Source of the DNA: Escherichia coli | GTDB lineage: Bacteria; Pseudomonadota; Gammaproteobacteria; Enterobacterales; Enterobacteriaceae | Assembly (NCBI RefSeq): GCF_003790525.1 | Contig: NZ_CP033635.1 | Reading direction: 5' to 3' (one strand) | DNA: 64,000 nt | Shown: piece by piece, positions 18,001 through 21,000 of the stretch | Numbering within the stretch: position 1 is the stretch's first letter | Layout of the letters: every line of letters starts with the position of its first letter | Position numbers: made by a program

Positions 18001-21000
18001 AATGCCAATAACCGAGGAAATTTATCAAGTATTATATTGCGGAAAAAACGCGCGCGAGGCAGCATTGACTTTACTAGGTCGTGCACGCAAGGACGAGCGC
18101 AGCAGCCACTAAACCCAGGGAACCTTTGTTACCACTATGACCCGGCCCGCGCAGAACGGGTCGGTCATTATCTTATCGTGTGGAGTAAGCAATGTCGTGT
18201 GAAGAACTGGAAATTGTCTGGAACAATATTAAAGCTGAAGCCAGAACGCTGGCGGACTGTGAGCCAATGCTGGCCAGTTTTTACCACGCGACGCTACTCA
18301 AGCACGAAAACCTTGGCAGTGCACTGAGCTACATGCTGGCGAACAAGCTGTCATCGCCCATTATGCCGGCTATTGCTATCCGTGAAGTGGTGGAAGAAGC
18401 CTACGCCGCCGACCCGGAAATGATCGCCTCTGCGGCCTGTGATATTCAGGCGGTGCGTACCCGTGACCCGGCGGTGGATAAATACTCAACCCCGTTGCTA
18501 TACCTGAAGGGTTTTCATGCTTTGCAGGCGTATCGCATCGGCCACTGGTTGTGGAATCAGGGCCGCCGCGCACTGGCAATCTTTCTGCAAAACCAGGTTT
18601 CTGTGACGTTCCAGGTTGATATTCACCCGGCAGCAAAAATTGGTCGCGGTATCATGCTTGACCACGCCACGGGCATCGTTGTGGGTGAAACGGCGGTGAT
18701 TGAAAACGACGTGTCGATTCTGCAATCTGTGACGCTTGGCGGTACGGGTAAATCTGGTGGCGACCGTCATCCGAAAATTCGTGAAGGTGTGATGATTGGC
18801 GCGGGCGCGAAAATTCTCGGCAATATTGAAGTTGGGCGCGGCGCGAAGATTGGCGCAGGTTCCGTGGTGCTGCAACCGGTGCCGCCGCATACCACCGCCG
18901 CTGGCGTTCCGGCACGCATTGTCGGCAAGCCGGATAGCGATAAACCGTCAATGGATATGGATCAGCATTTCAACGGTATTAACCATACGTTTGAATATGG
19001 GGATGGGATCTGACGTCCTGTGATCGTGCCGGATGCGATGTAATCATCTATCCGGCCTACAGTAACTAATCTCTCAACACCGCTCCCGGATACCCCAACT
19101 GCCGCCAGGCTTCATACACCACGACCGACACCGCATTGGACAGATTCATGCTGCGGCTGTCCGGCACCATTGGAATACGAATTTTTTGTTCAGCGGGCAG
19201 GGCATCAAGAATGCTCGCTGGCAGGCCGCGTGTTTCCGGGCCGAACATCAGATAATCGCCATCCTGATAGCTTACGGCGCTGTGAGCAGGCGTACCTTTC
19301 GTGGTGAGGGCAAACAGGCGCTGGGGATTTTCTGCTTCGAGGAACGCGCGATAGTCATGATGACGCGTAACGGCGGTAAACTCGTGATAGTCCAGCCCCG
19401 CGCGGCGCAGGCGCTTATCGTCCCAGGCAAATCCCATCGGTTCGATGATATGCAGACGAAAGCCGGTATTAGCGCAAAGACGGATGATGTTGCCAGTATT
19501 TGGCGGAATTTCTGGTTCGTAAAGTACGATGTTTAGCATACTGCCCCCTTAGTGCGGGGGCAGGATAGCAGATATTCATCTAACCCTTAAGCTGCATTCC
19601 CTTTCGCCATTGGAGCCAGCGCCGCCGCCGGCGCTTTACTCAGCTCTTGCACCAGCGAATCTTGCGTAATTTCGCTAATCGATTTCGCGCCAGTCAGCGT
19701 CATCGCCACTTTCATCTCTTTTTCGATCAGATTTAGCAGGTTAGCTACACCCGCCTGGCCCGCTGTTGCCAGCGCATACAGGAAAGCACGACCCAGCAGT
19801 ACGGTGTCGGCACCGAGCGCAATCATACGCACGACATCAAGCCCGTTACGTATTCCGCTATCCGCCAGAATGGCAATATCACCTTTCACCGCATCCGCAA
19901 TAGCGGGCAATGCACGAGCGGAAGAGAGTACACCGTCCAGCTGGCGGCCACCGTGGTTAGAAACCACAATCCCATCAGCACCAAAACGTACTGCATCGCG
20001 CGCATCTTCCGGATCGAGGATCCCTTTGATCACCATCGGGCCATCCCAGAAATCGCGGATCCACTCAAGGTCTTTCCATGAGATGGACGGATCGAAGTTA
20101 TTCCCCAGCCAGCCGATGTAATCTTCCAGTCCGGTCGGTTTGCCGAGGTAAGCCGAGATATTACCTAAATCATGCGGACGACCGTTCAGGCCCACATCCC
20201 ACGCCCATTGCGGATGCGTCACCGCCTGCAAGTAGCGGCGCATTGCCGCATTTGGGCCGCTCATCCCAGAATGCGCATCACGGTAACGTGCGCCCGGTGT
20301 CGGCATATCCACGGTGAAAACCAGTGTCGAACAACCCGCTGCTTTTGCTCGCTCCAGTGCGTTACGCATAAAGCCGCGATCGCGCAGCACATAAAGCTGG
20401 AACCACATCGGACGTTTGATAGCCGGAGCCACTTCTTCAATCGGGCAAACGGAAACCGTCGAGAGAGTAAACGGAATGCCATGCGCATCCGCTGCTTTGG
20501 CAGCCTGAACTTCGCCGCGTCGCGCATACATGCCACACAAACCCACCGGAGCCAGCGCCACCGGCATCGACAATTTCTCATTAAACAGCGTCGTTTCCAG
20601 GCTTAAGTCAGACATGTTTTTCAGAATACGCTGGCGCAGCGCCACTTCTGACAAATCTTCCACGTTGCGGCGCAGCGTGTATTCAGAATATGCACCCCCA
20701 TCCATATAGTGGAACAGGAACGGCGGCAGAATGCGTTGTGCTGCGGCGCGATAATCGCTGGCTGCGGAAATAATCATGCGTTTTTCTCCCTCGAATGCTC
20801 ATTATGGTCACCAGGCAGGCGGGTAATGCGTGCATGGCGAGCTTGATCTTCATCGAATCGTTTCATGGTGGTGTGAACAAAGCTAAGGTGCGCCATCATT
20901 GCTTTACGCGCCCCGTCAGCATCACCGGCAAAAATGGCGTCAATGACTGCCTGATGTTGTTCGGTCAGCTGTGAAAAAACCGGGGGTACCAGATACATCC

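What the first reader, a model, noticed from the sequence alone, without database searches (positions are those of the whole stretch)
19541..19563. GC-rich hairpin between the lldD stop and trmL start
ctgccccc-ttagtg-cgggggcag lies in the 47-bp spacer between lldD and trmL on the transcribed strand and is not followed by a clear T-run. It may be a partial terminator or processing site controlling read-through from lldPRD into trmL.
Basis: seen in the sequence. Interest (0 to 1): 0.2.

Follow-up and report, generated by a model that had tools for sequence, protein, structure and literature searches.

The report
RBS-masking hairpin inside trmL promoter
The hairpin is real and conserved across enteric bacteria, but it belongs to trmL rather than lldD: its left arm lies in trmL's own promoter and its right arm is trmL's ribosome-binding site, so it probably silences and caps only RNA that reads through from the upstream gene.

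Summary
On the minus (sense) strand, CUGCCCCC-GCACUAA-GGGGGCAG (19563-19541) is a perfect 8-bp hairpin of -17.1 kcal/mol. It sits in the 47-bp lldD-trmL spacer of E. coli SMS-3-5 and has no U-run.

It ends 1 nt before the trmL AUG. Its 3' arm carries the Shine-Dalgarno (UAAGGGGG). Its 5' arm overlaps a conserved extended -10 promoter (TGcTATCCT) and a G+C-rich discriminator.

The 44-nt block is identical in 5364 of 5420 E. coli genomes. About 54 Enterobacterales species keep the promoter, hairpin and SD layout upstream of trmL, with 34 different helix sequences. The upstream gene can be lldD, cpxA or an MFS transporter.

Published K-12 data (Adams 2021) show three things:
- an RNA 3' end 5 nt past the hairpin;
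- Rho-dependent read-through (score 3.7; intrinsic-terminator score 1.9);
- a reporter whose "entire 5' UTR" starts at the first loop nucleotide.

Best reading: trmL's own mRNA starts inside the loop, so its SD is open. Read-through RNA forms the hairpin and masks the SD. Rho then terminates within trmL, and exonucleases trim back to the hairpin.

This is a new member of known kinds and moderately interesting.

The parts
19587..20777 (-). lldD CDS (quinone-dependent L-lactate dehydrogenase); stop codon TAA at 19589-19587
   Evidence: ORF list; RefSeq annotation of the identical SMS-3-5 record
19568..19570 (-). TGc, the extended -10 'TGn' motif of the putative trmL promoter (positions -15 to -13)
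   Evidence: TG is at least 90% conserved in 54 distinct Enterobacterales sequences. Where it is lost (Hafnia GAGTATAAT; Edwardsiella GTTATACT and GCTATACT) the hexamer is nearer consensus.
19562..19567 (-). TATCCT, the -10 hexamer of the putative sigma-70 trmL promoter; its last two bases are also the first two bases of the hairpin
   Evidence: Hexamer positions 1, 2 and 6 (T, A, T) are invariant in all 54 sequences. The hexamer lies exactly at -12 to -7 relative to the 5' end of the published trmL '5' UTR' construct.
19556..19563 (-). 5' arm of the hairpin (CUGCCCCC), which is also the G+C-rich discriminator of the promoter; it lies upstream of the inferred TSS
   Evidence: Fold. The C two nt after the -10 is at least 90% conserved, even in species where it is unpaired.
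19549..19555 (-). 7-nt loop (GCACUAA); G19555 corresponds to K-12 3781199, the first base of the published trmL 5' UTR construct, and is the inferred TSS (+/-1 nt)
   Evidence: Primer JW10180 starts with GCACTAAGGGGGCAG, which maps to 3781199. A primer-versus-TSS check on sugE agrees within 1 nt.
19541..19548 (-). 3' arm of the hairpin (GGGGGCAG)
   Evidence: Fold
19544..19551 (-). Shine-Dalgarno UAAGGGGG of trmL, 4 nt before the AUG; five of its bases are in the 3' arm
   Evidence: Read from the sequence. Predicted cost to open SD through AUG+3 is 14.5-17.7 kcal/mol in read-through RNA and 3.9-7.5 in RNA starting at 19555.
19536..19536 (-). Position equivalent to the K-12 Term-seq RNA 3' end at 3781218, 5 nt after the stem and 3 nt into trmL
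   Evidence: Adams et al. 2021, Supplementary files 1 and 3. The sequence from 19572 to 19500 is identical in K-12-type genomes.
19066..19539 (-). trmL CDS (tRNA Cm34/cmnm5Um34 2'-O-methyltransferase); the first 80 nt are C-rich and G-poor (C 29%, G 15%), as in a rut site
   Evidence: A published Rho-termination region peaks inside K-12 trmL at 3781497, score 8.4.

Best explanation
The hairpin is part of a compact three-in-one control block that belongs to trmL. On the DNA, TGcTATCCT plus the G+C-rich stretch GCCCCC is trmL's own sigma-70 extended -10 promoter and discriminator. Transcription starts at about G19555, the first loop nucleotide. trmL's own mRNA therefore has a 16-nt leader that lacks the 5' arm, and its strong SD (UAAGGGGG) is accessible.

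RNA that reads through from the upstream gene carries both arms. That gene is lldD here and cpxA or a transporter in other genera. The RNA folds into the -17 kcal/mol hairpin, which buries the SD next to the AUG, so trmL is not translated from it. The untranslated, C-rich start of trmL is then open to Rho, which terminates within trmL. 3'-to-5' exonucleases trim back to the hairpin, leaving a stable 3' end a few nt past the stem.

The net effect is that trmL expression is insulated from the upstream operon and the upstream mRNA gets a protective 3' cap.

Shown: the structure, its conservation and covariation, its overlap with the -10 and the SD, and a 3' end with Rho-sensitive read-through in K-12 (published). 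Inferred: the TSS position (from a published construct and the promoter geometry), SD masking in vivo, the link from masking to Rho termination, and exonuclease trimming.
For: Structure: perfect 8-bp stem, -17.1 kcal/mol, z = -4.3.

Position: the stem ends 1 nt before the AUG and the SD is in the 3' arm.

Conservation within E. coli: the 44-nt block is 100% identical in 5364 of 5420 genomes and single copy, while the rest of the spacer varies from 47 to 197 bp.

Conservation across species: 54 distinct Enterobacterales sequences keep the order -10, hairpin, SD, ATG, with 22-29 nt between the -10 and the ATG. They carry 34 different helix sequences, for example GCCCCUC/GAGGGGC, GCGGCCCUU/GAGGGCCGC, UGCGUCCCUCU/AGGGGGACGCA and GGCUCUCG/CGGGAGCC. 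49 of 54 have z below -2.

Arm-swap test: exchanging 3' halves between species raises the mean energy from -15.25 to -12.64 kcal/mol, and 0 of 20000 permutations are as stable as the native pairing.

Strand: there are 32 G-U pairs, and the sense strand folds better than the antisense strand in 43 of 54 sequences, which indicates selection on the trmL-sense RNA.

Linkage: the block travels with trmL whatever the upstream gene is: lldD, CpxA (798 bits) or an MFS transporter.

Promoter: T, A and T of the hexamer are invariant, TG is at least 90% conserved, and the hexamer improves where TG is lost.

TSS: the 'entire 5' UTR' construct of Adams et al. starts at 3781199, which puts the hexamer at -12 to -7 and TG at -15/-14. 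The same study's sugE primer starts within 1 nt of the stated TSS.

SD masking: the cost to open the RBS is a median 15.9 kcal/mol in read-through RNA and 6.2 in own-promoter RNA, and it is higher in read-through RNA in 54 of 54 species.

Published K-12 data: 3' end at 3781218; Rho score 3.68 (read counts 425/96 untreated, 942/784 with BCM); intrinsic-terminator score 1.92; Rho-termination region inside trmL with score 8.4, p = 8e-46.

An open puzzle resolved: the reporter that starts at the TSS, and so lacks the 5' arm, showed no Rho effect, which the authors called unexplained. This model predicts that result.

General precedent: Rho-dependent transcripts end just past stable stem-loops without U-tracts, with rut sites immediately downstream (Dar & Sorek 2018). 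The first 80 nt of trmL are C 29% and G 15%.
Against: I could not read a TSS table. PMC4288677 is not held, and four other data sets gave nothing. The TSS is therefore inferred from a cloning primer and promoter geometry.

Adams et al. state that 3' ends with a TSS 20 nt or less upstream were removed from their Supplementary file 3. The 3781218 end is still listed although it lies only 19 nt from 3781199. The called TSS may differ, or may be absent from their list.

All RNA data are from K-12, whose spacer is 197 bp with extra hairpins. The K-12 lldD 'primary' 3' end is at 3781065. Nothing was measured in SMS-3-5.

Rho scores use 800-nt windows and cannot assign termination to read-through RNA specifically.

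The consensus promoter scan did not call this promoter, because the -35 matches only 3 of 6.

The own-promoter RNA is predicted to keep some weak SD pairing, costing 4-7.5 kcal/mol to open.

The arm-swap test does not correct for phylogeny. RNAalifold found no consensus helix on the MAFFT alignment, because the helix register slides between clades.

Photorhabdus keeps the hairpin although no ORF of at least 100 aa ends within about 670 nt upstream, so insulation from a close neighbour cannot be the only constraint.
Confidence: 0.6

Rival explanations
1. The hairpin is a weak intrinsic (Rho-independent) terminator of the upstream gene, lldD here and cpxA ancestrally. RNA polymerase releases at the hairpin, and the overlap with trmL signals is incidental packing in a short spacer.
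For: It is a G+C-rich stem-loop directly downstream of a co-oriented gene in every species examined. In 7 of 54 species the 8 nt after the stem hold 5 U, for example Serratia GAGGGGC-UUUUUAC. In K-12 the 3' end lies 5 nt after the stem.
Against: In E. coli the tail UAUGCUAA has only 3 U of 8, and the terminator scan does not call it. The published intrinsic-terminator score is 1.92, below the threshold of 3, and read-through is Rho-sensitive with a score of 3.68. Most species have only 2-4 U. A pure terminator does not explain why the stem always abuts the AUG and uses the SD as its 3' arm.
Confidence: 0.15
2. There is no selected structure. A C-rich promoter discriminator and a G-rich Shine-Dalgarno happen to be complementary.
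For: The shared core is simply a C-run opposite a G-run. Chimeric arm combinations still fold at a mean of about -12.6 kcal/mol, and 24.5% of between-haplotype chimeras are as stable as the native pairing.
Against: Pairs outside the C/G core covary: CUG/CAG, GCG/CGC, UGCG/CGCA, GGCC/GGCC, CUUCGG/CUGAAG. Native pairings beat all 20000 permutations. G-U pairs favour the sense strand in 43 of 54 sequences. The helix stays 6-11 bp long through 34 haplotypes.
Confidence: 0.05
3. The hairpin is part of trmL's own 5' UTR, with a TSS upstream of it. It regulates or stabilises trmL mRNA itself, for example as a 5' stem-loop protecting against RNase E or as a regulated SD-sequestering switch.
For: The SD lies in the 3' arm next to the AUG. 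Adams et al. list the 3781218 end despite a filter against TSSs 20 nt or less upstream, which leaves room for another TSS.
Against: The conserved -10 abuts or overlaps the 5' arm, so its TSS cannot precede the arm. The published 'entire 5' UTR' starts in the loop. A constitutive -17 kcal/mol block of the SD on the only mRNA would nearly abolish TrmL synthesis. The loop sequence is not conserved, so there is no obvious ligand or protein site.
Confidence: 0.07
4. The inverted repeat works as double-stranded DNA, as a palindromic operator for a dimeric transcription factor overlapping the trmL promoter.
For: It is a perfect 8-bp inverted repeat spanning -8 to +15 of the inferred promoter.
Against: The arm sequences differ between genera, with no conserved half-site. 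There are 32 G-U (G-T) pairs, which break DNA symmetry but keep RNA pairing. The spacing between arms varies from 3 to 9 nt.
Confidence: 0.03

Closest known systems
[quoted passage not shown]
   Same: It is a stable stem-loop with no U-rich tail. An RNA 3' end lies a few nt downstream. Read-through rises when Rho is inhibited. C-rich, G-poor sequence follows immediately.
   Different: This stem-loop lies directly on the next gene's start codon. It doubles as that gene's SD mask and overlaps that gene's promoter. It is also conserved together with the downstream gene, not the upstream one.
Protection of IS elements from outside transcription: 'fold-back inhibition' in IS10 and IS50, where read-through RNA pairs an upstream segment with the transposase RBS while RNA from the element's own promoter starts inside the pairing region (Davis, Simons & Kleckner 1985; Krebs/Schulz & Reznikoff; cited from my own knowledge). 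IS200 has a terminator against impinging transcription plus an SD-sequestering stem (PMC4513863).
   Same: The logic is the same. The complement of the RBS lies upstream of the gene's own TSS, so only foreign read-through RNA is translationally silent.
   Different: The host here is a conserved housekeeping tRNA-modification gene, not a mobile element. The 5' arm is the promoter discriminator itself. No experiment has yet tested translation of the two RNA forms.
Intrinsic (Rho-independent) terminators
   Same: It is a G+C-rich hairpin downstream of a gene with a 3' end nearby. Some orthologues, such as Serratia, have a U5 tail.
   Different: There is no U-tract in E. coli. The published terminator score is 1.92, below 3, and the published read-through is Rho-sensitive.
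Extended -10 sigma-70 promoters with a G+C-rich discriminator, as in rRNA and stringently controlled promoters (rrnB P1 TATAAT-GCGCCACC-A; from my own knowledge)
   Same: It has TGn plus a hexamer with invariant T, A and T, a poor -35, and a G+C-rich discriminator with a conserved C two nt after the -10. yibK (trmL) mRNA fell together with ribosomal-protein genes in a 6S RNA mutant (PMC2848244).
   Different: Control by ppGpp and DksA has not been tested for this promoter. The TSS is inferred.

Membership tests
Intrinsic terminator | G+C-rich stem-loop | tested here: met
   8-bp perfect stem with 7 G-C pairs, -17.1 kcal/mol
Intrinsic terminator | U-rich tract immediately 3' of the stem | tested here: not met
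   The tail UAUGCUAA has 3 U of 8 and the terminator scan does not call it. Only 7 of 54 orthologues have 5 U.
Intrinsic terminator | Termination independent of Rho | tested here: not met
   [quoted passage not shown] There is no experiment of my own.
Protective stem-loop of Rho-dependent transcripts (Dar & Sorek 2018) | Stable stem-loop without a U-rich tail, with a steady-state 3' end just downstream | tested here: met
   The Term-seq 3' end at 3781218 lies 5 nt after the stem in K-12.
Protective stem-loop of Rho-dependent transcripts (Dar & Sorek 2018) | Read-through increases when Rho is inhibited; rut-like C>G sequence lies immediately downstream | tested here: met
   The downstream/upstream read ratio is 0.23 untreated and 0.83 with BCM. 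The first 80 nt of trmL are C 29% and G 15%.
Protective stem-loop of Rho-dependent transcripts (Dar & Sorek 2018) | The 3' end is generated by PNPase or RNase II trimming | not testable with these tools
   This needs 3'-end mapping in pnp and rnb mutants.
Sigma-70 extended -10 promoter | TGn at -15 to -13 and a -10 hexamer with T-12, A-11 and T-7 | tested here: met
   The motif is TGcTATCCT. T, A and T are invariant and TG is at least 90% conserved in 54 sequences.
Sigma-70 extended -10 promoter | A mapped transcription start 6-8 nt after the hexamer | tested here: inconclusive
   The published trmL '5' UTR' construct starts at 3781199, 7 nt after the hexamer. A primer check on sugE agrees within 1 nt. 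I could not read a TSS table.
Fold-back inhibition of read-through transcripts (IS10/IS50 type) | The RBS pairs with a segment that lies upstream of the gene's own TSS | tested here: met
   The SD is in the 3' arm, and the 5' arm is at -8 to -1 of the inferred TSS. The cost of opening the RBS is about 10 kcal/mol higher in read-through RNA, in 54 of 54 species. This depends on the inferred TSS.
Fold-back inhibition of read-through transcripts (IS10/IS50 type) | Read-through RNA is translated poorly and own-promoter RNA is translated well | not testable with these tools
   This needs translational fusions with and without the 5' arm.
REP/BIME or other dispersed palindromic repeat | Many copies per genome | tested here: not met
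   There is one place per genome in 5420 E. coli genomes.
Any Rfam family | Match to a curated covariance model | tested here: not met
   No hit on the hairpin at E up to 10 in 18500-21000.
RNA thermometer | A weak, mismatch-containing SD-masking stem that melts near 37-42 C | tested here: not met
   The stem is perfect, G+C-rich and -17.1 kcal/mol at 37 C, and accounts for 92% of the ensemble.

The most novel reading that the evidence does not exclude
The block is a conserved read-through insulator in which one short sequence is read three ways: as promoter discriminator (5' arm), as RNA hairpin, and as Shine-Dalgarno (3' arm). SD masking on foreign read-through RNA recruits Rho-dependent polarity, so a housekeeping tRNA-modification gene is expressed only from its own rRNA-like, possibly ppGpp-sensitive, promoter whichever operon evolution places upstream. 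The same design may be common at tightly spaced tandem genes that have internal promoters.
Probability: 0.4. Interest if true: 0.55.

Novelty: new member of a known kind. Interest (0 to 1): 0.35.

Why it matters
The result reassigns a plain-looking hairpin from "end of lldD" to "start of trmL". It also shows how 30 nt can carry a promoter, an RNA structure and a ribosome-binding site at once.

If the model holds, it explains how TrmL is kept independent of lactate-induced (lldPRD) or envelope-stress-induced (cpxRA) transcription from upstream. TrmL makes the Cm34/cmnm5Um34 modification of tRNA-Leu.

It also offers a concrete answer to an open remark in Adams et al. 2021, who could not see why trmL has a strong Rho signature in vivo but none in a reporter that starts at the TSS.

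Finally, it suggests a simple sequence signature for finding similar insulators genome-wide: a -10 hexamer directly followed by a hairpin whose 3' arm is the SD.

Tried and rejected
- RNAalifold on the MAFFT alignment (A1) gave no consensus pairs, because the helix register slides by 2-3 nt between clades. I replaced it with per-sequence folds, an arm-swap permutation test and a sense-versus-antisense comparison. I did not build a covariance model or use the count of structure pairs, because any alignment fitted to each sequence's own helix would be circular.
- TSS tables led nowhere. Thomason 2015 is not held. Cappable-seq, SMRT-Cappable-seq, Conway 2014, Kim 2012 and Ramachandran 2012 had no entry or no held files. 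The Dar & Sorek supplements are not held.
- tRNA-Leu anticodon-loop mimicry for TrmL autoregulation: I considered this because some loops read UUAA or UCAA before the G-run. I rejected it because the loop sequence and length (3-9 nt) are not conserved outside the Escherichia, Citrobacter and Enterobacter group, and UAA fits the SD consensus.
- Dispersed repeat (REP or boxC): rejected, because the element is single copy.
- Bidirectional terminator: rejected, because neither strand has a T-run.
- A paper that reports recurrent variants in the lldD-trmL spacer (PMC11344242) and the G-quadruplex paper (PMC5100583) both concern K-12-specific repeats at 3781038 and 3781135-55. Those repeats are absent from this window, and the papers do not concern the hairpin.
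- A general transposon review (PMC3878927) had nothing on bacterial fold-back inhibition.
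Full report
**Observation**

The window is identical to E. coli SMS-3-5 (NC_010498.1) over the tested kilobase. 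RefSeq annotates lldP, lldR, lldD and trmL on the minus strand, with cysE convergent. In window coordinates lldD is 19587-20777 and trmL is 19066-19539, which leaves a 47-bp spacer.

Read on the sense (minus) strand, the spacer ends with ...UCUGCUAUC-CUGCCCCC-GCACUAA-GGGGGCAG-U-AUG. The inverted repeat is a perfect 8-bp stem with a 7-nt loop. It folds at -17.1 kcal/mol, accounts for 92% of the ensemble, has z = -4.3, and none of 200 dinucleotide shuffles fold as well. It survives in a 121-nt context.

No T-run follows on either strand, and the terminator scan does not call it. A stem this good is expected about once per 64 kb by a first-order Markov model, whereas the window holds 14. No Rfam family matches it.

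The stem ends one nucleotide before the trmL AUG. Its 3' arm contains five bases of a strong Shine-Dalgarno (UAAGGGGG, 4 nt before the AUG). Its 5' arm begins inside a -10-like hexamer, TATCCT, which is preceded by TGc.

**Conservation within E. coli**

A 44-nt query (19531-19574) is 100% identical in 5364 of 5420 complete genomes and occurs once per genome. The rest of the spacer is not constant. Only 1653 genomes match the SMS-3-5 form. K-12 has 197 bp with two G+C-rich repeat hairpins, and other strains have 72 or 187 bp. All forms converge about 33 nt before the ATG. The constant part is therefore the block next to trmL.

**Conservation across species**

A scan of one genome per species with the TrmL protein returned 80 loci. 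In about 54 distinct Enterobacterales sequences, from Escherichia to Erwinia, Pantoea, Serratia, Hafnia, Edwardsiella, Rahnella, Yersinia and Photorhabdus, the same layout precedes trmL. It consists of TGnTAnnnT, then within 0-4 nt a G+C-rich hairpin whose 3' arm is a G-run, then 0-7 nt, then ATG. Pasteurellaceae, Xenorhabdus, Moellerella and Rheinheimera lack it.

The upstream co-oriented gene is lldD only in Escherichia and some Enterobacter-like genera. It is an aromatic-acid MFS transporter in Citrobacter and Lelliottia, and CpxA in most other genera. The element therefore belongs to trmL and not to lldPRD.

**Is the pairing selected?**

MAFFT plus RNAalifold found nothing, because the helix slides by a few nucleotides between clades. 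I therefore used tests that do not depend on the alignment.

- Folding. Each sequence folds into a hairpin at the same place. There are 34 different inner-helix sequences, and 49 of 54 have z below -2.
- Covariation. Outer pairs covary clearly: CUG/CAG, GCG/CGC, UGCG/CGCA, GGCC/GGCC and CUUCGG/CUGAAG.
- Arm swap. Swapping 3' halves among 51 distinct sequences raises the mean energy from -15.25 to -12.64 kcal/mol (sd 0.32), and none of 20000 permutations is as stable as the native pairing.
- Strand. There are 32 G-U pairs, and the sense strand folds better than the antisense strand in 43 of 54 cases. This points to RNA of the trmL-sense strand rather than a DNA palindrome.

The caveat is that these tests are not phylogeny-corrected.

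**Promoter**

In the alignment, the only invariant columns besides one G of the G-run are T, A and T at hexamer positions 1, 2 and 6. TG one base upstream is at least 90% conserved. Where TG is missing the hexamer is closer to consensus: Hafnia has TATAAT and Edwardsiella has TATACT. A C two nucleotides after the hexamer is at least 90% conserved, even where it is unpaired. From my own knowledge, this resembles rRNA-type discriminators.

The simple promoter scan missed this site because the -35 matches only 3 of 6, which is usual for extended -10 promoters.

Independent support comes from Adams et al. 2021 (PMC7815308). [quoted passage not shown] This maps to K-12 3781199, which is the first loop nucleotide. 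That places TATCCT at -12 to -7 and TG at -15/-14. For sugE, their primer starts within 1 nt of the TSS stated in their text.

I could not read a TSS table directly. Their own filter against TSSs 20 nt or less upstream should have removed the 3781218 end, so the TSS remains an inference.

**RNA ends**

The same study lists a Term-seq 3' end at 3781218. This is 5 nt after the stem and 3 nt into trmL, and corresponds to window position 19536. Its score of 1468 is comparable with the lldD "primary" end at 3781065, which scores 1018.

The 800-nt read counts are 425 upstream and 96 downstream without bicyclomycin, and 942 and 784 with it. This gives a Rho score of 3.68, and I recomputed the ratio. 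The intrinsic-terminator score is 1.92, below the threshold of 3. A Rho-termination region peaks inside trmL at 3781497 (score 8.4, p = 8e-46).

This fits the class described by Dar & Sorek 2018: Rho-dependent transcripts end just past stable stem-loops that lack U-tracts, with rut sites immediately downstream. The first 80 nt of trmL are C 29% and G 15%.

**Mechanism proposed**

RNA started at trmL's own promoter lacks the 5' arm. The predicted cost of opening SD through AUG+3 is 3.9-7.5 kcal/mol. Read-through RNA carries both arms and the cost is 14.5-17.7 kcal/mol. Across the 54 species the medians are 6.2 and 15.9, and the cost is higher for read-through RNA in every case.

Read-through RNA should therefore be translationally silent for trmL. 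An untranslated, C-rich trmL would be open to Rho, and exonucleases would trim back to the hairpin.

This accounts for an open remark in Adams et al. Their trmL reporter started at the TSS and so lacked the 5' arm. It showed no Rho effect (1.0- to 1.4-fold) despite the strong in vivo Rho signature.

In SMS-3-5, whose spacer lacks the K-12 repeat hairpins, this hairpin is the first stable structure after lldD. It is therefore likely also the main 3' cap of lldPRD mRNA. That last point is inference.

**Rivals**

- Weak intrinsic terminator. This is plausible in Serratia-like species with a U5 tail. It is disfavoured in E. coli by the tail sequence, the published score and the Rho sensitivity.
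- Chance complementarity of discriminator and SD. This is disfavoured by the covarying outer pairs, the permutation test and the G-U asymmetry.
- A 5' UTR element of trmL's own mRNA. This conflicts with the position of the -10 and with the published 5' UTR.
- A DNA operator. This conflicts with the variable arms, the variable spacing and the G-T pairs.

**Comparison with known systems**

As a 3'-end structure it is a member of the Dar & Sorek class, and its 3' end is already in a published table. As a translational device it works like the fold-back protection of IS10 and IS50 against outside transcription (from my own knowledge) and like the IS200 arrangement. Here, however, it sits in a core housekeeping gene and uses the promoter discriminator as the masking arm.

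yibK (trmL) mRNA fell together with ribosomal-protein mRNAs in a 6S RNA mutant. This is compatible with an rRNA-like promoter but is weak evidence.

**Verdict**

The hairpin is real and conserved. It is best read as a trmL-linked block combining a promoter, an RBS mask and a 3'-end cap. It is a new member of known kinds and of moderate interest (0.35). Confidence in the full mechanism is about 0.6. The structural and conservation claims are much firmer than the in vivo steps.

Noticed in passing
window 19564-19586 versus loci L002 (K-12 NCM3722) 437-600, L003 454-500, L004 449-602: The lldD-trmL spacer is length-polymorphic in E. coli. It is 47 bp here, and only 1653 of 5420 genomes match this form. 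It is 197 bp in K-12, with two G+C-rich hairpin/G-quadruplex ('HPGQ') repeats, 72 bp in Ec-FL1-1X and 187 bp in strain 700481. The K-12 lldD 'primary' RNA 3' end (3781065) sits after the first of these repeats, which this strain lacks.
   Followed up: partly
window 32070-32125: This is a copy of the same G+C-rich repeat family found in the K-12 lldD-trmL spacer: GGGGTGAGG...CCCTCACCC followed by CCCTCTCC-GTGA-GGAGAGGG. It lies close to or overlapping the ends of minus-strand ORFs.
   Followed up: no
window 19022-19057: A REP-like palindrome (GCCGGATAG...CATCCGGC) lies between the convergent trmL and cysE stops. It gives a sub-threshold Rfam naRNA4 hit (26 bits against a gathering score of 59.5) and folds at -19.5 kcal/mol, z = -3.6.
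   Followed up: partly
loci L017, L021, L024, L031-L053, L056-L059, L074 (upstream of position 2501): In most non-Escherichia Enterobacterales, trmL lies directly downstream of cpxA (CpxA model 798 bits in Mixta). In Citrobacter and Lelliottia an aromatic-acid MFS transporter lies between lldD and trmL. The lldD-trmL junction therefore appears to be the derived arrangement.
   Followed up: partly
L004 (E. coli strain 700481) 625-631: The G-run in the 3' arm and SD is GGGGGGG, with two extra G. This is either a real homopolymer variant or an assembly error. It was the only variant I saw among the 56 genomes that are not 100% identical in the 44-nt block.
   Followed up: no
K-12 3781526, minus strand (inside trmL, antisense); window equivalent about 19228, plus strand: Adams et al. 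list a Rho-termination region antisense to trmL (score 3.4). This suggests that transcription reading out of cysE into trmL antisense is also stopped by Rho.
   Followed up: no
window 10443-10462, 13843-13867, 17125-17147, 21452-21473, 29369-29392, 30437-30461, 30860-30879, 55088-55110, 56752-56775: These are other perfect inverted repeats of at least 8 bp, G+C-rich, with 3-9 nt loops. There are 14 hits in the window against about 1.1 expected by chance. None was examined.
   Followed up: no
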